A stretch of DNA of 64,000 nt from Euglena gracilis (GCA_039621445.1 CP154954.1:3167715-3231714); one strand, 5' to 3'; positions 1 to 62,031 are shown, counted from the stretch's first letter. Program-made: numbers and translations. Notes: a model not told the origin generated them from the sequence alone.

Positions 1-712
1 CCAGCGACACCACCATCAGAAGCCACAAAAGGGTTTGCCCAGCCCACTAGGAAACTTTCCTCATCAATTTTGTTCCGACGAAAAGAGGCTCCCCAAACTG
101 GGTGAGCTGGGACTGCCCAACAAAACAATTACAATCTAGATTCGGATGACAGGGAAAATGCCAAACATGGTGGTTTCCAGGATGATTTCAGACATTTGGG
201 AGACTGTTATACGGACCACTCAATTTGGCTGGGCTCCACGTTATTGGGGCCTGGCCGCCTCCTCCGGCCTCTCCGAAGACAGACATGTTTAGTCCCAGGA
301 CTTTAATAGGAGCTCCTGGGAAGGGTGACTGGTTGACGGCGGGCAACATGGGACAGGGCTGAAAATTGCGGCACGGAGGCAGAACAAAAAGGGTGAGGAA
401 ATGAAATGGTTCCACCTGTGACTGCCGGGTGTGTTGAGTGGTGGGCGGTCAAAACTAGCATGAGGCAATGAATCTGTGGTGCTGAGAACGTTGAGAATGC
501 AAAGATCAAAACAGAAGACAAAAAGTGTTTTATTTTCGAACTGCGGTGAATTTGAAGTTAGTGAAGTTCTGGTAACAGAAATCAGTTTTTCCTCCTGTGA
601 CGACCTGTCTTCGCCGAGATCTTGGAACTCGCAGCTGACCTATTTTCCCGGTGGATTTTGGGTCGAATGTGCCGGGACAGGATTCCAGATACGGGGACGG
701 GACAGGGGGGAC

Positions 713-2426: not shown

Positions 2427-5400
2427 GGGTACCGCGGCCGCGGCCTCGGAGCGCTTGCGCCGCAGGTCGAGGTGCAGCCGCTGGCAGCGGCTGCCCACAT
2501 GGGCACACGCAGTGGCAGTTTCCTTTCCGTTTTGGGGTTTGATTGGGTCGGAATTTGCACAACACAACCCATGTCACCACGGTCTGAAGGTGAGCTTTCT
2601 GGTTCAGTTTATCACGACACAGTTCTTTTCCAAATGTTTTTGCAGAATCTGCCGGCGGTGGAAACTGGTGGAAACCCAGCACAGGGCACTGGACCTCATC
2701 CCCCCAACCCGTGATTGACCATTACCATTTACCATTAACACCAAATAACTGCGGTGGGTGCCCTGCCAAGCCTGGGCCTTGTGGGAGGGTGCATGGGAAG
2801 GTTGGGAGGGTATACCCTGCAGCTGGAAGGTGGGGGTGTGGTCGAACCCCCCCCCAACAAAGACGGGGGGTCCGATTCCTAATTCCTAATTCCCAATTCC
2901 CAATTTCTAATTCCCAATTCCCAATTCCCAAAATTCCCAATTCCTAATTCCCAATTCCTAAACAGCCGCGGGGCGTGGCGCCACCGTTGCCGATGGGTCT
3001 CGGGCAGGGCCGCTGGGCGGAGGGCCGCCACGTCAGCGCTCGTCACGCCGGGGATGCGGCTGGCCTGGGCAAGGGTCTCCGGGCGGACCTCGCGCAGCTT
3101 CTCGCGGCCGATGAAGGATATGGTGTGGATGGCGGCGTAGTCCAGGTCGGCGGGCAATTGCTGGCACGCCTCCCCGCCGGGGGGGGGGGGGGGAGAAGAA
3201 CGGCCGAGCGCAGGGCGTTGGGAGGACTTGAGGCAGATTTGTTAAATCTCGCGTCGGAACAATTCTTTTTTGGGAAAAAGGTGGCAGGTGTTGGGGAAAC
3301 TGCGCAAAAATGCTCAATAATGCGCAAAAAATGTACATGTTTTTGGAAAAAAAACTGCACAGAAATGCTCGTAATTTTAGAGAAAATGCTCCAAAATTAC
3401 GAAAAAAGCAAAAAAAATGCCCCCAAAAATATGCAAAAAAATGGTGCAGGATTTCTACAATTGTATGGAATTTTGAAGAAAATGTCAGTTTCAAAAAAAA
3501 ATCAAACCATTCAAAAAATTGGAAAAAAAACTTGCGAAAATGGTCAGAAAATGCAAAAAAAATGCAAAAAATCACAAAAAAAATGCGCCAAACCAACAAA
3601 AAAAAAAAAACGGACAAAACTGCAAAAAAAAAATGCAAAAATGCACAAAAATGCATGTTTGCACATTTTTGGAAAAATTGAAAAAAATGTGCAAGAAATG
3701 CACAGGCGGAAAAAAAATGCGACAGGCATTCACCCCCCTTGTCTTCAGGAGTGGGCGTGGCTTCATCCCCATCGACGCTGCCACCCGTTCCGCCTGCAGC
3801 TGCGCCCGGCGGATGAAGCCCTCGTACTTGATGTCCACCTCCACGGAGTCCTTCTCCTCTGCCTGCAGGCCGGCCTCGGGAGGTGCCCCGTAGCCGTGGG
3901 CCGGCGACAGGGTTGAGACCCGCGGGTTGGTGCGCGCGCACGCGTGTAGTGTGGTGGGTGGCTTTGTGCTGCGCATGCGTGGTTGTGTGTCGTGTGTCTG
4001 TGTGTGAGTGTGAGGGAGTGTGTGTGAGTCTGCACGGGTGTGTACTTGCGTGCGTGCATGCAAATGTGTGTGCTTGTCTGTGGGTGCATGTGTGTGTGTG
4101 TGTGTATGTGTGGGGGGCAGAAGGAGTGGTGTCTGGGTGACAGAAAAAGTTTGCCCCCCAAAAATTGTTAAAAATGTCACGTTTGGGGATTTTTTGGGGT
4201 AAAGTTTTGTCAAAAACGCCAAGAACCAACCGACCCCAAGTACCAACCCCAGGCGGGCCGGACCCTGCAAGAAGGGGAGATATGGTCCAGGGGGTCCATC
4301 TCTGCGCATTCCTCATACATATTGTTGGGTCATATAATTCTGGGAAATAAATTCCGAAAAGAGGCAAATTTTTCTCAACAAACCCAAGAACATTTACAGA
4401 AATGCATGTGTTTGCTAAATTTCAAAAGACAGCATGGGAGCGCTGCCAAATATTGCTTTTCAAAGCGCTGGCACGGCTGTGTGCCCTGGCTTCCAACAGG
4501 CTGTATTGCACGTGTGGCCGGCGGAGGATCCCCTCGACCCCACACTGTGGCTGGGGCGGGGCTGCAACGCTCAGAATCGCCCAACACTCAGGGAATGTTC
4601 ACCATGTTGCAAGGCGTACGGGGCTTTCATGCCCCCCCCCCCTACACGGGGTCGGACCCCAGCCCCCCTAGGGGGGGGGGGGGGCTGGGGGGTGGGGGGT
4701 GGGCGTGGGTTGAAAATGTCTTCTCCGCCCGCATGCCCTACACAGGGGGAGGATATTGTGCACCTTAAAAAAAGCAGGACAATGAGTGCCCTCTCAAAAG
4801 AAGCACATGCACATTTTTTGTTTCTAAAAAAAAGATCATCAGATACTTTGCACGAAGGAAATTTTGGGAGTATTTTACCGTTTCTCAGAAATAGTTCATC
4901 TTGGGCAAAAAAGGAACGTTGGGGAAATCTGGGAGGCACATACATCGTTTTGGAATAAAATTGGTCGTTATTTGAAGGTTTGAAAATTTTTCTATATTTG
5001 TCTGTATTTGTTATATTTGTTAATTTATATGGGCCCAAACATGAAGCCCCGTCTGTGGTCTAATGGGCATACATAATTGGGTGGGCCTTATACTTGAGGG
5101 GGAGTTATGGAGATTCCAAACAGCTTCAACTGGTCGGCCACGGTGTGCTCAAGGGACATCGCCGACTTCATCTCCTGCCCGCTCTCGGCGACCAATGCCT
5201 GCCCCAGTGGTGTGCTGAGGCTGTGCTGCAGTCTTCAAAGCGTCGAGAAGCCAACAGCAATGGCAGCAGCAGCGAAATCCATGCATAAAAAAGAATGAAA
5301 TAAAAAAATAAATGAAATGAAATGAAATAAAGCAACCACCACGATGGACCGAAACACAATACAGCACGATTGGGGTCCACCCGCACCGTCCCCAGGCGCG

Positions 5401-8400
5401 CTTTCTCCTTCTCCATTGTGGGCAGCCCTCCGTCCTCGCCTCAGCCGGCCAAGCAATGGAACGCTCACAGGCATGCAGTCCAGGCAGTTCATGCAATTCC
5501 AGTGGGTCCGCACAGCACCCGAGTATGTCCCCTGAATGTGAGCCTCCTCCAAACATCGGAAGGCCGAGTTTTCATTCCTGTCAGGGGCCATACAAGAAAC
5601 TGCGTTGCCGGTGCATTTTGCGTTCGCCCACGCACTGCACAAATGGGTTTGGACCCGGTCTCCTTCAGCCACGAGGGGGACACCGGCGGGGGGCTGGGTC
5701 TGGCGCACTTCGCCTGGAACTCCTGCCACTGCCGTTCAGCAACGAGGCCGTACTTGTACCTGGGCCGGGAGGGCAGCGATCCAACGGGCAACCCCGTCAT
5801 TTGGAATGATGCAACTGAACAGGGCGGATCAAGTGTGAATGTCCGGGGGAATGGGAAGCCTGCTTAGGATGTATGGTTGAGTGTGAGACCCCAGATCGAC
5901 TGCTGAGGACAAAAATGGTATAATCTCCAAAAAAACACAATCAATAATGACCCATTATCTTGGTAGTGCCCCTCCCCCGAAAATTGGCTTCAGTCAAGTT
6001 GACCAGTGCAGCAGGTAGGCCAATCCCGAAAAAGCCAGGTTTGCAAGTGTGGCTCACTTCAGGCGCCGGGGGGGGGGGGGTCTACCCACATGTTTACTCG
6101 AAAATTCCAGTAGTTCCTGAATTTGCCTGGCTCTCGGAGCACCCTAGGTGCCTGCCCCATCAGGGGGTCATGCCTCCCTGGTTGCAAACGAAAAATAGCC
6201 AAAAAGGGTGTTTTGGGTACTCCAACACACCCGGTGGGGGTGAGCCGCTGGTCCGCGTTGTCGGACCGCAGCAGCAGCCGGTGCTCCGACCGAGACGTGA
6301 ACACGCGGTACGGCTCCGCCTGGTGCTTCGTGATGAGGTCGGCCCCGCGCCGCCCAGCGGGCCATGGCAAGGCCGTACGGGAAGGCCTGGGGGGGGGTTG
6401 CCCCCTCACCTGGGGGAGGGTAGGGTATTACATGAGAGGGGGAAAGGGGGAGGAGTGGTCTGGAACCCCCTCCCCCCAGGGAGGGGGTGGAAAGGGGGGT
6501 CGACGCCCCCTCCCCTTTCTTGGGTAAAGAAAAATCCGCGCGGAAATTATGTTTTTGGCGATATTTTCCCCGACCAAATCGACAAAAACAGATGGGAATG
6601 GATGGGAAAACCACAAGGCTGTGTCACGAAGCGCCAGAGAAGGAAAAATTATTGGTTCCATGGGCGTCCCCGGGACCCCTCTCGACCCTGGGGGGGTGGA
6701 CTGGACCCCCCTCCCCTAGGGGGGGAGGAGGGGCCTCCCCTCCCCCTGTTCAAAACCAACGCTCTTAATACCCTGGGGGTGGGTCAACCCCCCACCACCA
6801 CAGCAACCGCACAAAGAAAACGGCTTTGGTTCCATTTTGACTGAAAAATCGGCGCCTCTGGAATCACGGGAAGGCCTGGTGGTGGGGGGTCGGGGCACTC
6901 ATATGATTTCGGGGCTTCCCGCACAGCCCTGGGCCATGGGCCTGGCCACGCCCGGTGTGTTGGTGCTTTTTGACCCACCAACCTGACTTTGAGGTGCCCT
7001 AAACTAAATCCCCCCCAAAATGAATACCAGGCCTTCTTTTGGGGTCCTGGGTTTTGGGGTCATTTTGGAGGGGGGGGGTTAAAGTTTTCAGGCACACATA
7101 TCTTTGCAAGGGAGAATGCCGAAAAGCAACCGTCCACTTGGCCCCCTCTCCCCGCAAAGGAAAGCGTGCAAAAAGATATGTTTTCGTGAAAATCAGGACG
7201 TGGTGGTAAGCGCAAAAAAAATCAATCAAAACAAAAATTCTCCAAACGACAAACATTGGTAATTGGTAAGCAACAGTCCGATGGTCCCCCCCAAAAAGGT
7301 TAAAAATACCCAGAATGGCTGATGATAATGCAAAACGTGGCTCAGCATTCTGAAGGGTTGTGACAAACGACGAAAAGTTGCCATAAGTTGGCTAAAAATT
7401 GCCACAAGTGCCCTTAGAAATGACCAACAACGCCAAAAATGGCCAAAAAGTTGTCGGAAATTGCCAAAATGCCCAAACTGGTTAAAGTGTTGAGTTAGCG
7501 AACAGGGCCAAAATACAGCCTAAAATGGCCCTATACCCCAACCCATGGTCAATACTTGACGCCATAGGTGCCCCCCCCCCCCAGTCTGAGACGAACAGTG
7601 GTATGTTTTAATGACCATCTTACTGGTGGGAGACCAAAACAATCCAAAAAGGGCCATATCAGGAGGTAGGCGTGCAGCTGAACGTAGACCTGGCATCCTC
7701 TACAGCTAAGAATTAAATTTAGGTCCACAGTGATTTCCTTTGATAGGCCGTAATTTTGGAGACATTTTGAAATTTTTGTATTATTTTTTGTGTATTTTTT
7801 GACCCCGAAATGACCCAAAAACGGCTGAGTCAAAAACAGGCCAAAACGGTGCAAAATTAATTGGACAAGGGGGTTGAACCCCCCCCCAATTAGAAGCCCC
7901 CCCCCCCTCGGGTTTCCCGCCGCCAAAATCTAAATAGCAGCCCCCCTCCCCCAGGCAGCTGTACGTATTCAAGGCGCTGGCCAACCACAAGCACACAAAT
8001 GCAGGTGGATCGGATTCTTTGGGGGCATCAAAAAGAGTGACATCTTCGAGGAACTCTGGCAGGGGACCCGAGAGTGTGCGCATAAAAAAAGAATTATTTC
8101 CACGTCAACACAAGTCCAAAAAGCCCGACTTTTTACACCCGACGCGAAGCGCCGAAAGTTTTTTTGGGCCCCACACAAGGGTGCCCCATTAGAAGCCCCC
8201 CTCGGGTTTTCCGCAGACTGACAGAACAATAACCCCTGGGGGCTTCTAATTGGGGGGGGGGGTCGTTTCAGTACCCCAAACAACTTTGCCCACTGCAAAA
8301 TTCATGGGCCAATCTTTTTGGCCCCAACCCTTGTAAACATCCGAGCAGTACTCAAAAACATTGATAAATTAATTAACCACTTCTCCGAAAAGCAATTTGG

Positions 8401-11400
8401 TGTGAAAAACATTTCTATTTTTAAAATTTGAAAACTCAGTTAAAACAGGGGGGGTATGCAACTTGGCCCTTCAAATTATGCAAGTAAAAAAAATTGCAAA
8501 ATTGCAAATTTTTTTTGCAAAAAAATGCAAAAAAAATGCAACTTGCATTAAACCCCTGAGAAAAGGCTGGAATATGACAGAGTTTTGCTGCCTAAAATCC
8601 GTGAACATGTGGCAATGCCGGTGTACCTGTCAATGATTCACAAAGAAGACCCCCTGGAAGACAACGGCAAGCACTGAAGCTTTGAAAATCAACACGAGTG
8701 GCACCTGCACGTTCAGGCAAAGCAAATCGTCCCTCCAGGTCACCATTGAACATCAATAAAGCGGCGGCCTTTTACTAGGGTGAAAGTATCAAAGACCCCA
8801 GGCAACTGCGGAGGGACCAAACATGACATGGCGACCAACTACAAAAAAAATTGTCCCGGGTAAAATATTTTATGCAAAAAAAATGCAAAAAAATGCAAAA
8901 AAAGCAAACTTCGGAAAAACCTGATTGTGCAAAAAAACCTGCAAATTATGCAAGTTGCATATTCCCCGCCCCCTGGTTAAAAACCCAGTTGAGACCAGAG
9001 ACAGTCAACAAAGTTGGGTACAAACAGGGCAGGAGTGCAAACAGCATGTGTTGCCAGCATTTTCCCTGTGCTTTCTAACCACCACGCCCACCTGTGCAAG
9101 ATGCCCCCCCACTGTCCTTGCACTCCGACGTAAAAAACTGGCAGAAACCACGGCCGCAAGTTTTTGTAATAGGAGGTAGGAGGGCCTTGTATTGGCGGGT
9201 GCGAGGGTTGCAGGGGGGGGGGGTGAGCCGGTCCCCGTCACAACCTCAGACAACAACCGCCCCCTCCCCTCTAAACTCAGTGGGTCCTGGTGCCATCCAT
9301 GCAGGGCGGCGGCCGTCCACCATGGTGCCGATGTACGACGACTCCCGCGGCAGCTCCAGCGCGGGGCGGCCACAGGGTATTGAGTGGCCAGGGGGGGGGG
9401 GGCACAACAGACTCTCCAGCTTAAAGCGCTGGAAAAGTTTGGGGGGAACTGGAAAAAAAGGCCCAATATCGCGGCTTCGCATACGTTTTTTTTAAAAAAC
9501 AAAATCAAGAGCATGCTCCAAGAAAATCATTGTACAAATCGCGCGGGGGGTCCCAGACCCCCCTTCGGGTCTGCCCCCCCTCCTGCCCGGGTCTGCCCCT
9601 CTGCCCGTGCAAAACACCAGTTCACTAAATCCCCTGGGCGGCCCAGCGCCGCGAGGGCAGCGTTGGCCCCCGCCACGAGGCCCTGCCCCGCCGCCTCCTC
9701 GTACCCCGTCGTGCCGCACACCTGTGGGGGGGGGGGGGCTGGATTTGAAATAAAAATCATATAAATATCATTATTTATCAACCTATGAATATACATTAAA
9801 ACATATTTGTACACATTGATATATTAATACATATTAAATATATTAAAAAAAATGCATTAATATGTTCATACGTGCATGAACACATTAATACATGTTAATA
9901 CATATTTGTAATGCACGTTGTTAATTTATACATATGTGATCATATATATATGAATATGTGTATATATGTGTGTATCAAGTCAGTTGGTAAGTGATGGAGC
10001 TGGTGTTTCGCAGGGGATAGGTCAATTCAAGGTGCCACTTTCATTCCGCCCCCCCACACCTGGCCAGCGAGGTACAGGCCGCGCACCGTCTTGGCCTGCA
10101 GGGTTCGCGTGCACTGCGTGGCGGGAATGTAATCATATTCGATGGCGTAGCCGGGCCGCACCATCTTCACCTGCTCCATCCCCGGCAGCGTCCCTCGATG
10201 GGGGAGCCCGGGCGAGGTCCAAACAGGAGGGGGAGGAAGAGCAGCAAGGGTTGAGCTTCGAAGGGTGATTATATGTGGAGCTCTTTTGTAGAACGTGGAG
10301 GACACCACCAACGTTTGAGGATCGTGTGTGTGTTTATGCACACATGTGTGTTTCTTTGTCTGTGTGTGTTTGCGTGTTTATTGTTTATCTGCTTGTGTGC
10401 ACGGGAGTGTGTATGCTTTAAAATAAATGCGAGTGCGCGTCTACCCCTGTGCAGGGGGGGGGGGTGCGCTGGACGGCCCTCGGAAAAAAATGCGCAAAAA
10501 TGCGCAAAAAAAATGCGCAAAAAAAGCGCTCAGTTGTGACATTCCTAAGGGGAAAAGGACTTAGAAAAATTTCCAACGATAAGCCCAAAATTAAACCAAA
10601 ATCACCAAAAAGAGCTGAAATGAAGGCATTTTTGGCCAAAAAAAATGCACAAGCAACGTCACTCAGCAGCGTCACTCTCCGTTCACCATAACCAACAATG
10701 TCAGCCATGGTGCCCCTTACTTGTGACCAGGGGAGTAGGATTCCGCATTTCATCTTGCTCCATCTGCTCAGCTTCTTGGCAGCAAGCTTTTGTCCAAAAA
10801 ATAAAATTTCCATTGAACAATAGCTTGGATGATCAGCCCTTGAACTTGAAGCCATTTTGTGAAAAAATCTGAGGGAAGAATGGAGAATTTGATTATTGGC
10901 GGAAAGAGGGATGGATGACAACATAGAATTGTTCAGAAGATCGGTGTTCAGGAACACCAATGTCAAATTTGTTTTTGACATGTGGACAATATGGACAATA
11001 TGGACAAAATGCCTCCAAAAAGTGTAAAAAAAAAGTGGGAAAATGGAAAAAATGCGCAAAAAAATGCGTAAAAATGCGCATTTTTTTGAAAAATTGACAA
11101 AAGTGCGCAAAAAAATGCGCGAAAATGCGCAGCGCATTCCCCCCCCCTGCCCTGTGATGAATGAGTGGGTGTGAGTGTGAACAGACGGGCATGTCTGGGT
11201 CTCTTGGCAGTGTCCCTTTCTGTTTGCGTGTAGTGTGGGAGACCTGCCCTGCCCCCTCTTTCCGGGACCCCCCAGCCCGCAGCAGCCCCAGCTGCAGGCG
11301 CTCCGGCAGCCCGGTGGAGCAGCCCCGGGCAGGGTTTGCCATTGCTCAGGGAGGACGAGGGGGAGCACCGGTGCACGCTCTGCTGGTTTCAAACCCTGGG

Positions 11401-14400
11401 CCTGGACGTAGAGCTCCGGCGTGCGGCGCCCCTCGGGCTCCAGGAACACTGGGTGGCCCCGGAGTCGAATGGGGTGGGGGGGTGAGAAAAGGGGCAATTA
11501 ATGATATTTACAATTATATTATCCAATAATAATAATAATAATAATGTTTATAATGCAATATCTTATGTCAGTGTTTACTATTATTCATAATAAGATTATT
11601 TTTTTTTTCGTATTATTGATCAATAGTTATAATTAATCAGTGTTTTCCAATTCATTAACATAAATTACAATTAATACTTTTTTCATATTTGGCTTCGGTG
11701 GTGTCTGTGCTGCAGCTCTGCGTTCGAGTTTCATTTCACCCAAGCTTGGAAGCAATTTCATTGATTCCGGTGTTGCAGAGCTCTTCCACTGGCGTTTCTC
11801 ACTAAGCGGCTGGGGGAGGATTCAAATCTCCATTCGGCGCCAGGTGGCTTTCCTTCTGGGCAAACTTCACAATCTTGTCCTCGATGGAAGGGCAGTTGCG
11901 AGGGCCTTTGGAATCCACCCAACCGCCATAGATCCACCCCAGGGTCCGGGTGAATCAACAAAAGAAAACCGGGTCCCAACAGGCATCTGTCTCCCAACCT
12001 CCAAGGTCAGCAGTACCAAAATTCAGTGGATGCTTGAGGTCCGAATGTGAAAGCCTTCATCGAAACAATTTAATGTATAATTATACCACATTTGTGTCCC
12101 GGATGGATTGCGGGTAAGCACTTGGCCAGACACAGTTCACTGTACACTTCCGTTCCCCAAAACACCGCCATCTGCCGGGCCCTGTTCGGAGTCTCATGGA
12201 GGTTGTTGCGGATCAGTTGGTGGGTGGCGGCGGTCGTCCGCGTCCCATAGCACAGCATCGGTGCAGGGCTGTTTGGCTGAAAATAATTGGGGCTTTTGTG
12301 AAGGAAAAAAATTTTGGGGCTGTGAGCAAAATGCAACTCCACCAGCGGGCAAAAGCGAGGCAAATTTTGCGACTTTTCGCGTGAGGAACCCCCCTACCCA
12401 GCCAAAAAAAAATCCCTGTCCTGTTCCCGCTCCACGTGCCGAGCGGTGTCGTGGGTGAACCACCGCGTGCGGGAGTCCCCCGGCATCGGCTCCATCCACA
12501 GATTCACTTAGCGACACACTTCCCGGGCGCAAACCCACCCACCCACACCTACTGTTTTCGGGAACCCACCCGGGGGGTCAAATCAGTGTTACCTGCCCCC
12601 CCCCCCCTGTCGTACGACCGGGTTCCTGCAACCTGTGACCGGGGGGGGGTGGTCATAACACCCCCATGACCTGCAACCTGTGACCGGGGGGGTGGTCGTA
12701 AATGAGGGGTGGTTGTACGACAAGGGGGGGGGGGGCGGGTAAGTGAATGTTTGGCTCCATCACCGCGAAATTCACGGTCCGGCCATCAACGCGGGGCGGC
12801 GTCCCCGTCTTCAGCCGGTCGGTGGTGAAGCCTCGGCCAGGCCCGGCACTGGGGCCCCGACGGATGCGTCCGCGGGGCTGGACCGCATTGCCACAGTCAG
12901 ACACTTGGGGGAGGGCGACACCTTGTGCCTTTTGGGGGCCTTTCCGTTGCAGGGTCGTTTTGGGGAACCGACTCGGGCCGAAGGAGACGAAATTCCCGTT
13001 CCCCGTCCCAGCGCATTCAACGAGAAATCCGCAGGAAACATTGCCGAGAAAATGGTATGGCCATATCATGGCAAAACGGGCCGACTTGGTGAAAAAAAAA
13101 ATGGTGTGGAACAACCTTGGACCATCGCCCGTCCACCCAAAACGTCAAAAAGGTGTTCTTCGACATTTTCATTTTTAACAACATTTGAGTTCTGAACCGG
13201 CTGTTTCAGTGTTTGGTCGGCCCTTAGGCCTAAGGGCGGTCCTTGACGGGAAAAAAAACCTTCCCGTCCCAAATGGACCGCACTGCTTGAGAATGGCCGT
13301 TCTCCGCCCCTCGGCGCTTTCGGTGCCTGGGATGCACAGATAATTAACACCTCCTCCCCAACCCGACCCTAGGGGTTCGAAGATGTTGTCTTCTCCTGCC
13401 TGCCCAAAGCACCCCACCATGGGGTGACCCTTCTGGAGAACAGCCTGGCCACAACTGTATCATTTGTAGTCCTTTCAGAACAAAGCTCCAAATGCAAATT
13501 GCCACCAAAAACACAATTAATGACAACTTCAACAGCGACTCTGGCAACAAGGACAGCTTCAAGGCGAAAGGTGGGGGGAAAAGGCTGGTTGAAAAGAGGT
13601 GGCCCGCTCGCCCCGGCCATGAAACGACACCACTGCAGCACCGGCCACAGCTGGACACCCAGGTCCGCAACAACCACGTCACCACATCACGGGGCACGCC
13701 CACGCACCGCCACCGCCCCCGAGCACCCTGGCCCCCCGGCCCGGCCTGTCCCAGACGCTGCAGCTGCTCCGTGATGCCCGTCGAGGCCTGCTCCCCGGCC
13801 CGCCCAGCGGAGCGCGTGGTGCGGCCCACCCAGATGGTGCCGTTCATGAACGGGCGGCAGCGGCGACTGACGGGCGGCCCGGGCAAAGCATGTGTGGGGT
13901 GTGCCACCGGCCACCGACACCGACTGACCCCACCCCCTTGAAAATGCGGGAAACCCCAGCCAGCCTGTTCTGATTCCTTGGGTGGTGCCCTATGGTGCTC
14001 TCAAAGAAAAACACACATGCTGGTTCACTTGGAACAACTCCGCCTACCCATCACTTGCAAGGGGGAGCACCAGGGGGGAGGGAAATTGAGTGGGCAAAAA
14101 AAAAGATGCAACAAGGCTGGGCATTCCAAACCTGGGATGTTCTAAAGCTCGCCGCTGGCTGTACCAGCGGTCAGCACGAGGGTCGGGGCATGGAACTCCA
14201 TCCCGTACACGGTCCGTCCCATGGATTCACTTCAATACCCCCCCAGGGAGACTTTTTCCTGGGCCCAAACACGCGAACAAATAATGCACCTCTCCCCCCC
14301 CAGACATTCATTTAGTGTGGTTCACAAAAGACGTGTGAACCACAATTTTTTTTTCGGTGTCCACAGGTGAACCACAAAAAAATTTTTGGTGTCCACATGT

Positions 14401-17400
14401 GAACCACAAAAATTTTTTTGGTGTCCACAGGTGAACCACAAAAAAAATTTTGGTGTCCACAAAAAAATTTGTTGCCCACAAAACATGATTGAGGATCGAA
14501 AAAAAAAATCAAGTTTTACAACTAAAAGCGGATTGATCTTGAGACGCCAAAATATGGACCTTGGCTCCGGCGCAATCTGTAAAATGCGGCAGCGAATCAC
14601 ACCCGCAGGCTTGTATGGGAATCTCGGCGGAGGGGGGGGGGGTGGGGGGACCCCCTCCAACCTCCAGTTTTCGGTCGCGAAACTTCTAAATTTCCGGGTC
14701 AAAAAAGTTGAACCAAAGGGGTGTAAGGGGTATGGGAGGGGGTCGCTGACCTCTTAACCTTTCAAAAATTACTGTAAATACCTGCAAATTGCAGGTGTGT
14801 AATTTGTAAATCATAATTTATGCGAAATTTGCGATGCTAGTCTTTTCCCTCGTCCATTACGTGCAAGTCCCATTAAGAGCTCAACGCTATTCAAACCTGG
14901 TCCCCCCACCCCCTTGTTTTGGAAGGGGGGACCTCCCCCCCCTCCTCTGCGGGGGCAAAAAAAAAAAACTTCCGGCGCCAAAAACGGGTCAAAAAAACGG
15001 GTCAAAAACGGGTCAAAAAACGCTCATTTTCGGCTCAAAAACAGTTCTTTTGGGTCCGAGAAAAATCGTTTCGGGCTGAATTTTTTTTCGACTTTTTTTC
15101 CGAATTTTTTCCACCTTTTTTAACCCCAAAATGGCCTAAAACAGCTAAGTCAAAACACGCCAAAACTGTACAAAATGGCCCAAATTGGCCGAAAAATGGC
15201 TGTAACTCGGGCTGGGCAGGGAGTTGCGGGGAAATCAAAATGCGGTTAGATAGGGCTTCAAAGGGCTTCAATTCAAGTCAGGGGACGTTTCCTTTAACTC
15301 CCCACCACCAGGGAATTTCTTAAGCCGGAGGGTACCCTATCCCCCGGGGGGGGGGTCCAGCCAGCCAGCAGCTCAAATCCAGCCAGCAGCCCAAATTCGG
15401 GCTGGGACCCCACTCCCCAGGGGTCGACTGAAATAAAGTCGGGTCCAGCCCAGCCGGAGGCCGGGCCAGCCGGCCGAAGGCCGGGCCAGCCGGCCGCAGG
15501 CTGGCCAGCCAACTGGGCTGCCCAGCTCACCTATCCCTGCATTTTTTCCCCTCACCACAGCTTCCTCCATCACAGCCCCCAGCCTTGATCTAGCTCCATC
15601 CACCAAAATGTCGAAAATGGCAAAAATGTGTTAGAAAATTTTGTTTTCACCGACCCAGCCCAGCCCAGCCCCGCCCCCCCCCCCCCCCGGACCCCCCCCC
15701 CCCCCCCCCCCCCACCCCCCCGGGGGGCGGCCCAGCCAGCAGCTCAAATCCAGCCAGCAGCCTTTTTGCCAGCCGGAGGCTGGACCCCCCCCCCGGGGGG
15801 TCCTTAAGAAATTCCCTGCCCACCACTTTCGAAATTTTCATCATTTAACAATTATCAGAAAAATCGATTTATTGACCCAAATGTTTGGTGTCCACATGTG
15901 AACCACAAATATTTTCTTGGTGTCCACAGGTGAACCACAAAAAAATTTTGGTGTCCACAGGTGAACCACAAAAATTTTTCTGGTGTCCATATGTGAACCA
16001 CAAAAAATTTTTTGGTGTCCACAGTGAACCACAAAATGACAACCTTGGTGTACCACACTAAATGAATGTCTGCTCCCCCCCCCCCCGAGGGCCCAGCGGT
16101 CCAAACCTACCCACCCACCCACCCCTCCTTCACCCCCCCCCCCCTGGGTGGGTCACCGCAGGGGGCAGGGAATCCATGGCCCGCACCCCGCGGACCTCGT
16201 CGTTGTGCTCATCCACTAACAGCTCGCTGACGGTGCCCTCGCGCAGGCAGAGGTTCGGGGTGGTCTCCAGCACCTGCCGCATATATTGTGAGTACTCCAC
16301 CTGAAAGGCAGGGGCCAAAGAGTCGAATGTGCCTTTCAGATCGACAAGAATCGATGCAAATTGCATTATACATTCTTCCTGCTTTAGCAAAAAAAATATT
16401 AATAAAAATATTAAAAATATAAAAATATAAATTATATATTTTTTTGAAAATTGTGTTGCTTGACCTGCTGTGTTATAATTAAATAATCTTTCCCTTGCAT
16501 GCTCCCGAAACAAAAACTGCTGAATGGGAAACGGTTCTCCTCCTCGTCCAAGGTTTCCTCCTTATGAAGGTTCAGGCTGCCACACTAAGGTAAATTTGGG
16601 TTCCTGTTTCTTAAAATCACCAAAACATCCAATCCCTGCACGCTTTTCTGTCAGCCTTTCCAGCACCAGTTTGCATAGACACGAAGCATCAGACATGCAA
16701 AACACAGGATGTCGGCAAGCCTGTGACCCTGTGAATGTGCAGACAGCCACGCTTGGGGCAGAGCGTACCTTGTCTGTCTGGGCTCGCAGGGCATGCACAG
16801 CCGACCTCAGGCACAAAACTCTGCCAAAATGGCATGGATGCCAAAAAAAGACAAAAATTACAGAAATAATGAAAATGTAAAAAATCAACAAAATGGCAAA
16901 AATGACAAAAATGAAAAAAAATGACAAAAATGACGCAACCCCAAACCAAAACCAAAGTCAAACTCATGGAGGAGCTGCTTTGGCCGCTCAGCGGTGGCGT
17001 TCAGGCCTGGCCGGTCCTTTGGAGGCGTTCAGGAGGCGCTTGTGGAGGTACGACGCGTCGGCCGCCTTGCCCATCTCACCCCCCAGCGCGTCCACCTCGT
17101 GCACCAGCTGGCTCTTGGCGGAGCCCCCGACGGCTGCCTTCGCTGCCCGGCCTGGCAAACAACAACATAAACCCGTGAAAACAGAAAAAAAAGGGGAAAT
17201 TATTGTTTTTTTTTCATTTGTTCAAACTAAATAAACTCCTTTTCATTCATTGGGGGAGAGGTCGGTGAAATAAAAATGGTGAAAACATCATTTTTTTTGG
17301 AGTTTTGGGCTGGCGAGCACCCCCCTGGCATGCTGGCGAGCACCCCCCTCCCAGCACAAATACTGCGTCGTGGTGGAAATTGGTCCCACCATCTTTCCAT

Positions 17401-19541
17401 GCATTTTGTAGAGGCCTTAATTCTGAAGTAAATGTTGACGAACAGATTTTCTTACCCCGATATGGACAAGGTGGTTACCTCTCCCCTGGAAACGCCGAGG
17501 TTAATCCACCCAAGCTAAATTGATGAAAGATCCAGCCAGCTAACCTCTGTTCCAAAACAGAACAAAAATCATATTCAATTTGTTATCCTTGACAGACATC
17601 TCTAGACACTTGCGATTTGGCTGTGTCAGGATTTGTTGGGATTTGTCAGGATTTGTTATGTTTTGTCGGGATTTGTCGGGATTGAACACTGGGGTTGGGG
17701 TCCTGGCCACATTATTTTGGACAGATTTGATCCAGAATGCATACACGGTCCGACGACGGGAAACAACAATGACGTGAAAAAATGATGGAAAATATTTAAT
17801 GTTGGAAACGCAATCAACGCAATGGGAAGATTAAACTTTTATGGAAAATGGTGGTATTTTTTCTCAATTGTTATGAATAAATCAGCAGAAAAGCAACTGA
17901 AGATTTAAATGTAATTAAATCTAAATTTCAAAAATAAATATTTTTTATGCAATTGGCTTTTAAACTCGAAAATATTCAAATTGAAACTTAAATTGAGGTT
18001 TAAAAAATCGTCAAAATCGTTTTGTAGGTGTCTTTTTTGTGGTTCCTTTATTACAAAAAAAGAAGTCCAAACGTGACCATATTTCATACCCCCAACTTTT
18101 TGTGGTGAAAATTGACTACCCCTGAACGTGCCCCCCACCAAAGGGCATAGAAAAGGTACAGGGGAAAATGATAGGAAGAATGAATGGGAAAATTGGGTGG
18201 TTTCCCATTATTTTTGTTTAATATCATTTTATTGTTATGTATGTCAGTGTTATTATTATATATGCTATATATTATTGTACATTGTATGCCATTTATTATA
18301 TGTTATATTATATATTGATATATTATGTATTATATATTACACATTATATATTATATATTATTTGTTTTATATATTTTATATTTTTGTTTGTTTACTTTTG
18401 TTTCCCATCATTTTTGTCCGGACTGTACTAAGTCTGCTGATGCTGATCTTCTACCAGGCACACTTTGGCCGAAAAAATGAAGCCATCTGCTCAGATAGCC
18501 ACCATTTTCAGGACAATCTGTGAAGACAAAAAAGTTTTCAAAGAAGAAAAGCAAGGAACAGAGAAAACTACAAAGCTTTGCAACAAAAAAGGAAGGACAA
18601 AAAGATGGTCGAAGTTATTCACTAGGAAGGCTTTGGTTAGGCATTCATTTGCACAAATTTTTTCTCTGTCGGGATTTGTAGGGATTTGTTGGACCCCACC
18701 TGCAGAAAGACCAAAAAATGCTGTCCATTTATAGGGATTTTGGAGGTGCCAGGACCTGGTGGCTGAAACATTTGGGCCTGTGGCCAACTTTGGAGGTGGG
18801 GGGCATGTTGGCCCCAACAGGGGGGGGGGGAATGAGCCGGGGCGGCGGAGGTATGACGAGGAAGCCTGAGCTGGGACAATGGAGTTGCGCAGATATTTTA
18901 TGGTTTTGTTTTGAGGCATTTTGGCTTGGCGGCTGGTTGCCCCCCCTTTGGTCATTGGGGTCAACATGGCGCCCCGAAGTTGCCCTCCCCCCTCCGGCTT
19001 GTTGGGGCCACAATGGACTGGGCCAATGAGCCGGGGGGGGGGGGGGTTGAGTCGGGACCCCAGCCCATCGTGGTGCTGGGTACTCTACACGACAACATCT
19101 CTTTCAACGAACCACATTCACCCGTTCAAAAGTTGAACGTTTGTGGTTGATTCACATTTGAAGCGGGGGGGGGTGGAGGCAACATGTGCCCTCGAATGCA
19201 AAAATGCTATAAAAAAAAACCCGCAAAAAAGCAATTTTTGCTAAAATCGAAAAACGTCAAAAACACGCAAAAAAGTTTGCGCCCCCCCCCCGCCCCAAGC
19301 CATCCCCCGGGTGCATGCGGGGCTGCGGGCGGGTTGCACGGCTGCCAGGCGATCTTGTCCAGGGTCATCGTCAGCAGCAGCGTGCGGGCCCCAAGGCGCG
19401 CCGCCGCCAGAGCCGCCTCGCAGCCTGCGTGCCCGGCGCCGACGACCACCACGTCGTAACACAAAAACTGCAAAACAACACACAACACAAGCGCGCGCGC
19501 GCACACACACACACACACGCACACGCACACGCACACACACA

Positions 19542-19635
<94 letters not shown>

Positions 19636-25290: not shown

Positions 25291-50898
<25,608 letters not shown>

Positions 50899-55000: not shown

Positions 55001-58000
55001 CACTTTGACGAAGACCTGGGACCACAGATCGCTGGAAAAGGGTGCCATCATGCATGCAATGACACAACATGACAAACAATGAGCAACCACTGTGCGAGCA
55101 ATACACAACGCTTTGCTAAACAGCGCGGCGTGCAGAAACGTTCCACAGGCCACCACTGGAGGTGCAGGTGATGCAAGAAAACAATCCATCAAAAAAAAAA
55201 CAGGAAAATATTTTCGTAAAACAAAATAAATCAAAGCAAATTCAATTTAATAATCAGCAGGCTAAATAGCGAAACCACGTTTTTAATCGTCCTGGGTTCT
55301 TGTGATCGCCAAAAAGGCAAAAAGGAAGTTTAAAAACATCCAAAAACTTAAAAAAAAAGCATAAAATTGAAATTTGGCATGTTTCAATTTCAATCATCGG
55401 GTGCTTGCTACACCCTGGAGAAAGCCAGCAACCCCAAACCGCAGCACCCGCGCCACGACACCAAATACCTGTCAGGAGGCCAGCGGCCCCCACCAGGTGG
55501 GTCCAGCGGTGGTACCGGATTGCTGGCCGGTGCATGACACCCAGCACAGCACGTCGAACAGGGATCGTCCGGCGAGACGACCTGGCCTTGGGGCAAGGCG
55601 GGGGTCAGGGCGGTCGGCAGCAAGGGCTCAGCCCTCCGTTGGAGGCGCTTGAGTGGCCCATGAGGAAAAGTGGGGGGGGGGGGGCTGTGACTTCAAAAAA
55701 CTCGGTATGCGAAAATGCAAAAAAAATGCAAATAATGCAAATAATGCAAAAAAATGCACAAAAGATGCAAAAAAGTGTATAAAAATCCCAAAAAAAATGC
55801 AGCGCAGCCAGCTTCAAAAAATTTTTGCGGTGGTTCTGGTGCAGAAACAGCACGTTTTTTTTGTGTGCTTCTCTCGCCTTTTTTTTGTTGTGTGTTTGGT
55901 GTGAGGTATTTCCCCAGCAAACTTGTAATTGGCTCCATATTTTGTCATATCTTCAGGTGGGGGGAGGCAGGCAACAGCATTTTGGGGATTGGATAAAGCA
56001 ACTCCCGTTCCAAAAACCCCGCCCCGCACATCCCCCCTCCCTGTACCACTTCCACACCGCCAATGGGAGAACGCGAGGCAACTCACGCGGTGGGCCGGGA
56101 AGGGGCGGGTCCGGGCCGGGGGCCGCGGGGCAGCTGGGGTCGTGGAGAGGGCTGGCGGCCCCCCAGGCCGAGCCGCCAGCCTCGGTGGGCGTTATTGGCC
56201 AGGCTCTCCGCGCTGCGGCCGGTGATCCAGTGGTCAATTGGACGATGAAACTACTGGGCTAAACTGAACAAGAACAAATACAATACAAACATGAAACATA
56301 ATACATAATATAATAATATAATATAATTAATTATTAATAATTAATTATAATAACTGCTAATAATTAATTATAATAATTAATTATTAATTAATCAATAATT
56401 GTTTATTAATAATATAATAAACACACAGAAAATAAAATTAATAAAATAAAATTAATAGAAAAAATAAAAAAAACAGAAAAAATAATATCCATATCAGAAA
56501 CACCTTTGGAAATGCTGGGCTTAAAAAAAAAGAAAATACTTGACTTCTTCGCTGGGCCGTTGGTAGGATAATCCCGCCAATGTTGTGTTCGCTTGGGCCG
56601 TTTGTACAACTGCACAAACGGCATGTTTTCTGGCATTTCTTTGAATTCACCAAGCAGGCACCGAAACCTAGTGTCACTTCATTAGGGTGTCATAGGTGTC
56701 CCAGGGACGTTGACAAGTTGGGTGCAGCAGAGCAGAAGTCCCCCAGAGCATTTGAGGCACATGCTGGGGCCTAAGGTCTGCCTCATCAACAAGTCGTCCT
56801 GAGACGGAGCCCTACACCATGCAACCAAAATGAAGAATGTGGGGTTTTTTCAAAAAAAATCATCATCTATTTCAGCAAATTAAGGTCTTTTCGTAATAAA
56901 AATAGCTAAGATATTAATGCCGTCCCACTCAGAAGTCATTGCTCAGCCTCCTGCTTGACAGGGAATCCATTCATGAAAAAACATTCCAGAGGTACCTTCT
57001 CCCTGTTTGTTTACGACCACTGACCTGCAACCGAGGGACAACAGGCACACAATGAAGAGAAATTTTTGATAACCTGACCGGTCAATGACCAGGGGGTCGC
57101 CCCAATGCATCCTGCGTTCTGCGGGGGTTACCATTGGACATGGGGTGGTCGTATGACAGTGGGTACAATGGGGAACGTGTCATGCAGAAAATACATTCAA
57201 CAAAGCATACACTTTCGGAATGAACCAGAATTACAAGAAATGTTTGATGACTGTTGATGAAAACAGAAAATGCTCTTTTGGAAATGGGGGTAACCATTTT
57301 TTCAAAACGTTTTTGGATCCTTGAGAGGCAAATACTTTTTTTATAAAAAAAAGCCCTTCCAAAGCCATGAATTTGACTTTCACAAAAGTTCCAGGGCTTC
57401 AAGTAAATCGTTCAGCAACCCTGCAACGTGGGCTTCCACGGCGAAATCACCTGCTGGCCCTGGTCTGGTGGTCATGCCATTTCTTTCCCAGTGGTTGGGG
57501 ATTTCTTTTGAAGAAATGGACGAGAACCAGCGGAAGGCCTGGGAATGGACCACGTGAGTGATGAATGCGGAGAGACTTTTGGGTGAAAACGCAGTCACCT
57601 TTCTTAAAAACTTGTCTGTGAGAGGGAGGCCTTTGAGAATGCGCCTGTGGCCAAACTTTGGCGCTCGAAATGGCGCCAGAATGACAAGAAAAAAAATTTG
57701 GGGCTCCCACACATCGCTGCGCAAGCCAACCCAAAGAGGGTGACAATGGTGGCGGAGTGGGGAAATACATACCCTCACAGATAATCCAGATCATGGTCAT
57801 TTTTTTTGCATCCAACGAGGCCCAAAAGTCTCTGGCGTCGAGCCGAACCAGGCAGGCCTGCCTCCCCTTCAGCCAGTATTGGCTATGCCTGCATGGCAGT
57901 CTATCGTTTCCAGATGCCTTGCGATCAGCACCAAGCAGGGGTTCTCTTAAGGATTCCTCGGAGGGGGGGTGTCCCGCAGGCCAGCCGGAAAAAAATAGCT

Positions 58001-61990: not shown

Positions 61991-62031
<41 letters not shown>

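What the first reader, a model, noticed from the sequence alone, without database searches (positions are those of the whole stretch)
2480..19330. Nonconventional intron geometry equals one hAT transposon plus one 8-bp TSD: a candidate self-neutralising transposon-to-intron system
Seen: most non-GT-AG mnmG introns are N3-[CAG...CTG stem]-N5 (e.g. 11325-11401, 12833-13751, 11935-12187, 16803-17012, 5418-5699, 3903-4491, 2480-3018). Seen: the same window has MITEs starting CAG/TAG and ending CTG with 8-bp TSDs (15309-15818, 44808-45185 and 57936-58335 perfect; several 7/8). Known: CAG/TAG termini with 8-bp TSDs characterise the hAT superfamily, and the +4..6 / -8..-6 pairing is the euglenid nonconventional intron consensus. 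Inference: 3+5=8, so splicing removes the element plus exactly one TSD copy and restores the original mRNA. Any such insertion would be a seamless intron at once, in either orientation. As predicted, the 8 nt outside each stem arm still resemble each other: 8/8 (12492-12756), 7/8 (9368-9639), 6/8 (41801-42517) and 4-5/8 in most others scored. A MITE origin of these introns has been suggested in general terms; I cannot confirm whether the exact TSD arithmetic has been published.
Basis: partly seen in the sequence, partly recalled or inferred. Interest (0 to 1): 0.92.

Follow-up and report, generated by a model that had tools for sequence, protein, structure and literature searches.

The report
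Transposon-shaped introns in a euglenid gene
Most odd (non-GT-AG) introns of a euglenid tRNA-modification gene look like small cut-and-paste transposons plus one copy of their 8-base insertion scar, so the cell's unusual splicing rule would erase such insertions exactly from the message.

Summary
A 22-intron mnmG/MTO1 gene lies on the minus strand (2440-19461); removing the homology-mapped introns gives one open frame. Nineteen introns are non-GT-AG. Thirteen have a terminal helix set 3 nt and 5 nt inside the junctions, eight of them with exact CAG...CTG.

The window also holds free-standing CAG...CTG inverted-repeat elements with perfect 8-bp target-site duplications (15309-15818, 44808-45185, 57936-58335) and one with 7/8 (33872-34237).

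The 8 nt outside the two helix arms match each other in 59 of 104 positions in those 13 introns. About 36 are expected from mismatched pairs (0 of 200,000 permutations reach 59). Without the two best introns the count is 44 of 88 (p=2e-4). The signal comes mainly from a few young-looking introns.

So "intron = element + one 8-bp duplication" is well supported here. The 3/5 spacing, TSD-like repeats and a MITE origin are already published. An 8-nt repeat at a newly gained intron was published but read as break repair. I found no paper stating 3+5=8.

The hAT assignment is unproven: no transposase domain is in the window and no genome is held. RNA junctions could not be checked.

The parts
2440..19461 (-). 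mnmG/MTO1 (GidA-family) gene, 23 exon blocks and 22 introns. The N-terminal end upstream of 19461 was not mapped.
   Evidence: tblastn with P0001/P0002. Joined exons give one open frame ending in a stop. Pfam GIDA and SAM_GIDA_C on ORFs of this region.
16803..17012 (-). Nonconventional intron 2 (210 nt), N3-CAGGC...GCCTG-N5; flank 8-mers 5/8
12833..13751 (-). Nonconventional intron 6 (919 nt), N3-CAGGCC...GGCCTG-N5; flanks 4/8
11935..12187 (-). Nonconventional intron 9 (253 nt), N3-CAGGG...CCCTG-N5; flanks 2/8
11325..11401 (-). Nonconventional intron 11 (77 nt), N3-CAGGGTTTG...CAAACCCTG-N5; flanks 5/8
9368..9639 (-). Nonconventional intron 14 (272 nt), N3-CAGGG...CCCTG-N5. Flanks 7/8, with an 8/8 window one base over. 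Inverted repeat 12 of 16.
5418..5699 (-). Nonconventional intron 17 (282 nt), N3-CAGCCC...GGGCTG-N5; flanks 4/8
3903..4491 (-). Nonconventional intron 20 (589 nt), N3-CAGGG...CCCTG-N5. Flanks 4/8; best 8-window 6/8.
2480..3018 (-). Nonconventional intron 22 (539 nt), N3-CAGCGGC...GCCGCTG-N5; flanks 5/8
12492..12756 (-). Nonconventional intron 7 (265 nt). Element 12497-12753 has CA...TG inverted-repeat ends containing ATTCACTTA. Perfect 8/8 flanking repeat; junction can slide 10 nt.
17136..19330 (-). Nonconventional intron 1 (2195 nt). By hand reading of the intron ends printed, the terminal helix is CGCAGCCC/GGGCAGCG with one mismatch and flank sum 8; one search's own helix list gives only a 5-bp GCCCG/CGGGC helix with sum 9. 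Flanks 4/8.
14215..16181 (-). Nonconventional intron 4 (1967 nt), CATGGATTC...GAATCCATG ends, flank sum 8, flanks 5/8. It carries the nested elements listed below.
4536..5150 (-). Nonconventional intron 19 (615 nt). By hand reading of the ends printed, the ends are CACAC(C/T)GTGGC with flank sum 8; one search's helix list shows no such helix. Flanks 4/8.
3160..3762 (-). Nonconventional intron 21 (603 nt), CACGCC...GGCGTG ends, flank sum 8, flanks 2/8. The homology optimum lies 1-2 nt away (3161-3763).
13852..14160 (-). Nonconventional intron 5 (309 nt), CAGCGGCGA...TCGCCGCTG with spacers 3+6 (sum 9); no flank repeat
12259..12420 (-). Nonconventional intron 8 (162 nt), CAGGG...CCCTG with flank sum 7
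10193..11277 (-). Non-GT-AG intron 12 (1085 nt), TGGGGGG...TCCCCCA ends, flank sum 9
5217..5371 (-). Non-GT-AG intron 18 (155 nt), helix GTGCTGTA/TGCAGCAC, flank sum 10
11455..11845 (-). Non-GT-AG intron 10 (391 nt). No clear terminal CAG/CTG helix; 6/8 junction repeat (GCCACC core).
6341..9314 (-). Non-GT-AG intron 15 (2974 nt); terminal helix ambiguous; best 8-window 6/8
16301..16768 (-). Conventional GT-AG intron 3
9722..10059 (-). Conventional GT-AG intron 13
5760..6230 (-). Conventional GT-AG intron 16
15309..15818 (.). MITE, 510 bp, 16-bp perfect inverted repeat beginning CAGGGAATTTCTTAAG, perfect 8-bp TSD. Nested inside the 14301-16072 element.
14301..16072 (.). 1772-bp non-autonomous TIR element. 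21-bp perfect inverted repeat beginning CAGACATTCATTTA; 32-bp subterminal repeat arrays at 14335-14461 and 15884-16036; flanks 6/8 (C-run). Nested inside mnmG intron 4.
44808..45185 (.). MITE, 378 bp, CAGGCAT... ends (11 of 16), perfect 8-bp TSD
57936..58335 (.). MITE, 400 bp, CAGGG(G/T)TT.TCTT.AG ends (13 of 16), perfect 8-bp TSD
33872..34237 (.). MITE, 366 bp, CAGGGGTTTT ends (10-bp helix), TSD 7/8. Lies inside the GT-AG intron 33170-34348 of the UFD2-like gene.
41801..42517 (-). Probable nonconventional intron of the UFD2-like gene. In gene orientation N3-CGG...CTG-N5; flanks 6/8. Not confirmed by a homologue.

Best explanation
The non-GT-AG introns of this euglenid mnmG gene are descendants of non-autonomous cut-and-paste DNA transposons. 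These elements have short terminal inverted repeats beginning CAG (or close variants) and make an 8-bp target-site duplication.

In the pre-mRNA the two inverted repeats pair. The euglenid nonconventional splicing machinery cuts 3 nt upstream of the 5' arm and 5 nt (sometimes 6) downstream of the 3' arm. Because 3+5=8, what is removed is the element plus the equivalent of one TSD copy. What remains is the first 5 nt of the upstream copy plus the last 3 nt of the downstream copy, which is the original 8-mer. The pre-insertion reading frame and sequence are restored whatever the target sequence was, provided TSD position 6 is a purine.

Shown here: the geometry, the residual duplication, and free-standing elements with the same ends and 8-bp TSDs. 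Taken from the literature: the cutting rule and its portability. Inferred: that insertion came first and that splicing was immediate. The superfamily is most likely hAT-like but is not established.
For: 1. Geometry. 13 of 19 non-GT-AG introns have a terminal helix with flank sum 8, and 8 have exact CAG/CTG. Intron lengths were fixed independently by protein homology and an open frame.

2. Residual duplication, stem-anchored. 59 of 104 flank positions match against 35.8 expected from mismatched intron pairs, and 0 of 200,000 permutations reach 59. Without introns 7 and 14 the count is 44 of 88 (p=2.2e-4).

3. Register. The match rate is 0.567 in the 8 nt next to the helix against 0.267 in the 32 surrounding positions.

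4. Stem-agnostic test on all 19 introns. The sum of best 8-windows is 93 against a null of 68.4 +/- 4.9.

5. Free-standing elements. Those at 15309-15818, 44808-45185 and 57936-58335 have CAG...CTG ends and perfect 8-bp TSDs; 33872-34237 has 7/8 and sits in a GT-AG intron. The 14301-16072 element has a 21-bp TIR and subterminal repeat arrays.

6. Shared end motifs between introns and elements. CAGGG(G/T)(T/A)TT occurs in MITEs 15309, 57936 and 33872 and in introns 14, 8 and 11. CA.A.ATTCA(C/T)TT occurs in introns 7 and 4 and in the 14301 element.

7. Purines. Intron +1 and exon-2 +1 are purines in 19 of 19 each, as expected if both are copies of one target base.

8. Literature.
- The code N3CDG...CH'GN5-6|R was defined by knock-ins, and synthetic 50-bp introns splice (PMC12501133, sections 8, 10, 11 read).
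- 84.4% of E. agilis introns are 'slidable' through junction repeats (same paper, section 5).
- A recently gained gapC intron has eight-nucleotide direct repeats (PMC4770533, passage).
- Ac/Ds ends are C/TAGGGATGAAA with 8-bp TSDs (PMC3260210, passages).
Against: - Junctions rest on protein homology only. No RNA reads could be laid, so the 3/5 placement within sliding ranges is assumed from the published code.
- Individually only introns 7, 14, 10 and 20 beat their own off-period null at P<=0.03. Introns 9 and 21 have 2/8.
- 4 of 19 introns have flank sums of 7, 9, 9 and 10, and 2 are unclear.
- The shared end motifs are short and T-rich and are not significant after multiple comparison.
- No multi-copy family could be shown within 64 kb.
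- No transposase domain is in the window.
- The sample is one gene.
Confidence: 0.7

Rival explanations
1. The elements are 8-bp-TSD transposons, but not hAT. They might be mobilised by Merlin (shown in Euglena gracilis with 8-bp TSDs), a P-like superfamily, or an undescribed one. The arithmetic still holds; only the family label changes.
For: No hAT (or any) transposase domain in 179 ORFs of at least 110 aa. Two Merlin families with 8-bp TSDs are reported in E. gracilis (PMC8101967, passages). No paper in the library links Euglena and hAT transposons. The target preference nTnnnnAn, which I recall for Ac-type hAT, is not evident in the 4 perfect TSDs.
Against: All Merlin families start their TIR with GG (PMC8101967, passage); the elements here start CAG/CA. 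Short 10-21-bp TIRs, 8-bp TSDs, a C/TAGGG-like terminus and subterminal repeat arrays match the hAT description (PMC3942097, PMC3260210 passages).
Confidence: 0.4
2. The junction repeats come from double-strand-break repair or another intron-gain process, not from transposase target duplication. The resemblance to the MITEs is then coincidental.
For: The 8-nt repeat of the newly gained gapC intron was read this way (PMC4770533, abstract and passage). Most introns here have only weak repeats.
Against: The same terminal motif and the same 8-bp repeat length occur at elements that do not interrupt exons, including elements nested in introns. The repeat sits exactly against the inverted-repeat ends. 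Break repair does not predict a fixed 8.
Confidence: 0.1
3. The causal arrow is reversed. The introns themselves are the mobile units, for example excised circular intron RNA reinserted by reversal of the splicing reaction and copied to DNA. The free-standing 'MITEs' would be such copies.
For: Nonconventional introns are reported to leave as full-length circles (review PMC11282704, passage). The machinery is unknown.
Against: A reinserted intron would carry its own 3+5 spacer bases and would not create a perfect duplication of the new target. Four elements here have perfect 8/8 target repeats. The 14301-16072 element has transposon-type subterminal repeat arrays.
Confidence: 0.07
4. The 3/5 spacing and the 8-bp TSD agree by chance. 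The excess flank identity reflects a shared junction consensus (Y|R, C at the third position) rather than common descent.
For: Mismatched intron pairs already share 2.75 of 8 positions, above the 0.267 background. This shows a common consensus in both flanks.
Against: The permutation test keeps that consensus and still gives 0 of 200,000. Perfect 8/8 and 7/8 cases cannot come from a weak consensus.
Confidence: 0.05

Closest known systems
Euglenid nonconventional introns (Milanowski et al. 2014, 2016; Nomura et al. 2025 code 5'-N3CDG-/-CH'GN5-6|R)
   Same: Non-GT-AG borders, CAG at +4..+6 pairing with CTG at -8..-6, 3-nt and 5-6-nt spacers, purine at the exon start, junction direct repeats, coexistence with GT-AG introns in one gene.
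   Different: Nothing in kind; these are further examples. What is added here is the reading that 3+5 equals the 8-bp TSD of same-ended free-standing elements. I did not find that reading stated in the passages and sections read of PMC3935182, PMC4770533, PMC6221363, PMC11282704 and PMC12501133. The J Mol Biol 2021 circular-RNA paper and all supplements could not be seen.
Introner elements (Micromonas, Aureococcus, dinoflagellates; Huff et al. 2016 as described in review PMC11282704)
   Same: Short non-autonomous DNA transposons with TIRs and TSDs become introns. Splicing removes the element plus the TSD equivalent, so the insertion is seamless.
   Different: Introners use spliceosomal GT/GC-AG sites, partly co-opted from a specific TSD sequence (3 nt in M. 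pusilla). Here the cut sites are measured from the TIR helix and are sequence-independent apart from one purine. The TSD is 8 bp and the machinery is unknown.
Amoebophrya and Fritillaria non-canonical introns (PMC7789003; review PMC11282704)
   Same: Non-canonical borders, 8-20-nt inverted repeats that bring exon ends together, direct repeats overlapping the junctions, and a suggested MITE origin.
   Different: The direct repeats are 3-5 nt and variable in position. No fixed spacing rule equal to a TSD length is reported.
Ac/Ds and other hAT elements
   Same: 8-bp TSD, short TIRs (10-25 bp), a terminus C/TAGGG..., subterminal repeats and many short non-autonomous derivatives (PMC3260210, PMC3942097). 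Ds has been reported to behave as an intron in maize (Giroux et al. 1994, seen only as a reference in PMC3935182).
   Different: No hAT transposase was seen here. Ds splicing uses cryptic spliceosomal sites and is usually imprecise. Several elements here end CAGAC, CAGCC or CAGGC rather than CAGGG.
Merlin elements of Euglena gracilis (PMC8101967)
   Same: DNA transposons documented in a euglenid, with 8-bp TSDs.
   Different: Merlin TIRs begin GG; the elements here begin CAG/CA.

Membership tests
Euglenid nonconventional introns | Borders other than GT/GC-AG | tested here: met
   19 of 22 homology-mapped mnmG introns have no GT-AG placement among the equally scoring junctions.
Euglenid nonconventional introns | CDG at +4..+6 pairing with CH'G at -8..-6 (spacers 3 and 5-6 nt) | tested here: met
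   8 of 19 have exact CAG/CTG with 3+5 and 1 of 19 has 3+6. Five more have a 3+5 helix with other end triplets. Five do not fit.
Euglenid nonconventional introns | Purine as first base of the downstream exon | tested here: met
   19 of 19 in the 3/5 representation. The placement within sliding ranges was chosen by me.
Euglenid nonconventional introns | Removal from RNA at these junctions by the non-spliceosomal route; circular product | not testable with these tools
hAT superfamily (non-autonomous derivatives) | 8-bp target-site duplication | tested here: met
   Perfect 8/8 at 15309-15818, 44808-45185, 57936-58335 and intron 12492-12756; 7/8 at 33872-34237 and 9368-9639.
hAT superfamily (non-autonomous derivatives) | Short TIRs (10-25 bp) with a C/TAG-type terminus | tested here: met
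   TIRs of 10-21 bp begin CAGGG, CAGAC or CAGGC. Reference values come from PMC3942097 and PMC3260210 passages.
hAT superfamily (non-autonomous derivatives) | Cognate transposase with BED finger and hAT dimerisation domain | tested here: inconclusive
   0 of 179 scanned ORFs of at least 110 aa have any transposase domain. Fourteen low-complexity ORFs were not scanned. No genome is held.
hAT superfamily (non-autonomous derivatives) | Target preference nTnnnnAn (recalled from memory for Ac-type hAT, from no call) | tested here: inconclusive
   Of 4 perfect TSDs, none has both T2 and A7 on one strand. Three have A at position 7 on the + strand. n is too small.
Merlin superfamily | TIR begins 5'-GG | tested here: not met
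   All elements begin CAG or CA. The criterion is from PMC8101967.
Introner elements (spliceosomal) | GT/GC-AG splice sites supplied by the element and TSD | tested here: not met
   The TIR-bearing introns have non-GT-AG borders.
Introner elements (spliceosomal) | Many near-identical copies in the genome | not testable with these tools
   There are no multi-copy families within 64 kb. The metagenome scan gave only chance single hits.

The most novel reading that the evidence does not exclude
The euglenid nonconventional splicing system acts as an RNA-level eraser for one class of DNA transposon. It reads the paired terminal inverted repeats and cuts 3 and 5 nt outside them, which is exactly the 8-bp target duplication. 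Any such insertion into an exon, in either orientation, is then silent from the first transcript if TSD position 6 is a purine. That would explain why about 72% of Euglena introns are nonconventional. It would explain why both junctions share a Y|R consensus, being two copies of one target. It would explain why most introns are 'slidable', and it would make decay of the intronic halves of the TSD a clock for intron age. The staggered cut leaves a 2-nt 3' overhang relative to the helix. This hints at a dimeric endonuclease docking on the helix end, which is speculation.
Probability: 0.5. Interest if true: 0.8.

Novelty: new variant of a known kind. Interest (0 to 1): 0.62.

Why it matters
The origin of euglenid nonconventional introns and the logic of their odd 3/5 spacing are open questions. 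The 2025 genome-wide study calls the origin unclear, and the 2016 paper read an 8-nt repeat as break repair. If the spacing equals the target duplication of a resident transposon class, intron gain, the splicing code, the Y|R consensus at both junctions and the abundance of sliding junctions get one explanation. That explanation can be tested at once on existing data (649,158 E. agilis junctions) and with the existing knock-in assay. It would also be a clear case of host RNA processing and a transposon's insertion chemistry being matched to each other.

Tried and rejected
- **RNA junctions.** The run search listed no RNA holder.
- **Whole genome.** None is held.
- **Second gene.** A UFD2/UBE4-like gene lies on the minus strand, about 25-46 kb (Ufd2P_core). 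Two word-based homologue searches found nothing. The HMMER search gave only fragments. One fragment, P0122, maps three exons whose two introns are GT-AG. So there was no replication set of nonconventional introns. Two Pfam calls on guessed ORFs hit nothing.
- **De novo intron prediction.** Prediction from the published code plus coding potential gave 80 candidates on the gene strand against 37 on the opposite strand, with only 5 true ones. It is too unspecific.
- **Helix-only scans of the window.** Chance pairs dominate. Pairs with 7/8 flanks are no commoner at the true register than at shifted ones.
- **Family search within the window.** Only low-complexity hits.
- **Metagenome scan with a 16-nt TIR.** 116 single chance hits. 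Ten had a weak inverted partner, and none had a TSD (at most 4/8).
- **Earlier findings of this scan.** Nothing held.
- **Literature.** The J Mol Biol 2021 circular-RNA paper is not held. Supplements are closed; the sliding-distance chart and datasets of PMC12501133 may already show an 8-nt limit.

Full report
**What the region is**

The window has no N and about 50% G+C. No genome is held for it. Stop-to-stop frames on the minus strand between about 19.5 kb and 2.4 kb carry pieces of an MnmG/GidA/MTO1 protein.

A word-based search with one exon returned MnmG proteins. The best hit, P0001 (581 aa), is 80% identical to that exon. By tblastn it is 66-100% identical to successive exon-sized pieces of the window. 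I treat it as a transcript fragment from a related euglenid.

I enumerated all donor/acceptor pairs around each pair of neighbouring hits and scored the joined translation against P0001 (P0002 for the first junction). This fixed the length of each of 22 introns uniquely. The position was left free to slide where the junctions repeat. Joining the 23 exon blocks gives one open frame that ends in a stop. Pfam finds GIDA and SAM_GIDA_C in ORFs of the region.

I call the organism a euglenid because of the intron type. No tool named it.

All seven introns listed as N3-[CAG...CTG]-N5 are among my equally scoring junction placements. Because the gene is on the minus strand, they read N5-CAG...CTG-N3 on the + strand.

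Three introns are ordinary GT-AG: 16301-16768, 9722-10059 and 5760-6230. Nineteen are not.

**Geometry**

For each non-GT-AG intron I listed maximal terminal helices and the number of intron bases left outside them. That 'flank sum' does not depend on how the junction is slid.

| Group | Introns | Flank sum |
|---|---|---|
| Exact CAG...CTG | 2, 6, 9, 11, 14, 17, 20, 22 | 8 (3+5) |
| Other end triplets | 1, 4, 7, 19, 21 | 8 |
| CAG/CTG or TGG/CCA | 5, 12 | 9 (3+6) |
| CAG/CTG | 8 | 7 |
| Other | 18 | 10 |
| No clear end helix | 10, 15 | unclear |

For introns 1, 7 and 19 I read the sum-8 helix by hand from the intron ends that one search printed, allowing mismatches. One search's own list of uninterrupted helices shows no sum-8 end helix for introns 1 and 19, and for intron 7 a different sum-8 helix in another register.

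So the geometry holds for 13 of 19 and the exact motif for 8 of 19. This agrees with the experimentally defined code 5'-N3CDG-/-CH'GN5-6|R. That code tolerates a 6-nt acceptor spacer and covers 61.2% of nonconventional introns in E. agilis (PMC12501133, sections 8 and 11 read).

**Free-standing elements**

- Their inverted repeats are 16 of 16 (15309-15818), 13 of 16 (57936-58335) and 11 of 16 (44808-45185).
- A fourth element, 33872-34237, has a 10-bp perfect end helix and a 7/8 duplication. It lies inside a GT-AG intron of a second gene, so it does not interrupt an exon.
- The 15309 element is nested in a 1772-bp element, 14301-16072. That element has a 21-bp perfect inverted repeat and arrays of a 32-bp subterminal repeat near both ends. 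It is itself nested in mnmG intron 4.
- My coding-potential scan found no coding signal at the flanks of 44808 and 57936.

Simple pair counting does not support 'several 7/8' MITEs. There are 77 pairs with 7/8 flanks at the true register, against 53-91 at shifted registers and 71 in the reversed sequence.

**Is the 8-nt flank similarity more than chance?**

A duplication of the target predicts that base x matches base x + L, where L is the intron length, in the 8 nt just outside the 5' helix arm.

- *Profile, 13 helix-anchored introns.* The match rate is 0.567 in those 8 positions and 0.267 in the 32 surrounding positions. It drops to 0.08 two positions further out on either side.
- *Total, 13 introns.* The count is 59 of 104. 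Pairing each upstream 8-mer with the downstream 8-mers of other introns gives 2.75 per pair (35.8 in all). That control keeps any shared junction consensus. 0 of 200,000 permutations reach 59.
- *Without the two best introns (7 and 14).* 44 of 88, p=2.2e-4.
- *Stem-agnostic, all 19 introns.* I took the best 8-window near the junction at period L and compared it with periods L +/- 12-60. The sum is 93 against 68.4 +/- 4.9, and none of 100,000 draws reaches it.

Against the claim: taken singly, only introns 7 (8/8), 14 (8/8 one base over), 10 (6/8) and 20 (6/8) beat their own null at P<=0.03. Introns 15 and 4 are borderline, and the rest look like chance. This is what decay of the unconstrained intronic halves of an old duplication would give, but it is also simply a weak signal in most introns.

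The first intron base and the first base of the downstream exon are purines in 19 of 19 each. This fits the published purine rule and the published Y|R consensus at both junctions. If the two junctions are the same position of two copies of one 8-mer, the parallel consensus follows.

**Do introns and elements belong to the same families?**

End motifs group loosely:
- CAGGG(G/T)(T/A)TT... occurs in MITEs 15309, 57936 and 33872 and in introns 14, 8 and 11.
- CA.A.ATTCA(C/T)TT... occurs in introns 7 and 4 and in the 14301 element.

These similarities are 10-13 of 14-16 bases. After allowing for about 500 comparisons they are suggestive only. Within 64 kb no element has a second full-length copy. 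A metagenome scan with one 16-nt end gave only chance hits.

**Superfamily**

The published description of hAT is short TIRs of 10-25 bp and 8-bp TSDs (PMC3942097, passage). Ac/Ds ends are C/TAGGGATGAAA, with subterminal repeats (PMC3260210, passages). The elements here fit these features.

But no transposase domain of any kind occurs in the 179 ORFs of at least 110 aa that I scanned (108, 71; 14 low-complexity ORFs were left out). Merlin elements with 8-bp TSDs exist in E. gracilis, although all Merlin TIRs begin GG (PMC8101967, passages). So hAT is the best guess and is not shown.

**What is already known**

- A MITE origin was proposed in 2014 from the inverted repeats (PMC3935182, abstract and passages).
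- The 2016 paper reports 'eight nucleotide direct repeats' at a recently gained gapC intron and suggests double-strand-break repair (PMC4770533, abstract and passage).
- A 2024 review calls CAG/CTG the TIR and notes TSD-like repeats at the junctions. In my term search of that review, '8 bp', '8-bp' and 'hAT' do not occur.
- The 2025 PNAS paper defines the 3 and 5-6 nt spacers by mutation and shows that synthetic introns splice. It reports that 84.4% of introns slide on short repeats, and still calls the origin unclear.
- Seven of my eight literature searches bear on this point. None found a paper that equates 3+5 with an 8-bp TSD or names the transposon family. only fetched hAT reference papers.
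- Supplements and the 2021 circular-RNA paper could not be read.

**Verdict**

The central inference, intron = element + one 8-bp duplication, is well supported for this gene and is consistent with published experiments. It is a precise and apparently unstated sharpening of a known hypothesis rather than a new kind of system. The hAT label and 'any insertion at once' remain inference.

Noticed in passing
window 14215-16181: Three-level nesting. MITE 15309-15818 lies inside the 1772-bp TIR element 14301-16072, which lies inside mnmG intron 4. Without the nested element and its 8-bp duplication, the intron would be 187 nt. It is unknown whether nested elements are removed separately from the RNA.
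   Followed up: partly
window ~25300-46000, minus strand: A second, very long gene for a UFD2/UBE4-type ubiquitin chain elongation factor (Pfam Ufd2P_core on 3 ORFs). Two of its introns (33170-34348, 31626-33021) are GT-AG. 41801-42517 looks nonconventional (N3-CGG...CTG-N5).
   Followed up: partly
window 14335-14461 and 15884-16036: Arrays of a 32-bp, internally palindromic subterminal repeat, 4-5 copies at each end of the 14301-16072 element. These are the kind of array that binds transposase in Ac/Ds.
   Followed up: no
mnmG introns, 8-mers flanking the helix: Both flank copies share a weak consensus. Position 6 is always a purine and position 8 is mostly C (10 and 9 of 13). This could be a target-site preference or a splicing constraint mirrored in both copies.
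   Followed up: partly
window 19544-19653, 37099-37495, 47331-47883, 23812-24037, 54018-54176, 61702-62027: Long microsatellites: (CT)n just upstream of the first mapped mnmG exon, (GT)n of about 400 bp, AGA/AAT arrays, and (TA)n. Many elements and introns also carry long G or C homopolymer runs just inside their ends.
   Followed up: no
window 3300-3700 (inside intron 3160-3762): A 400-bp A-rich low-complexity block with repeated AAAATGC-like units fills most of this intron.
   Followed up: no
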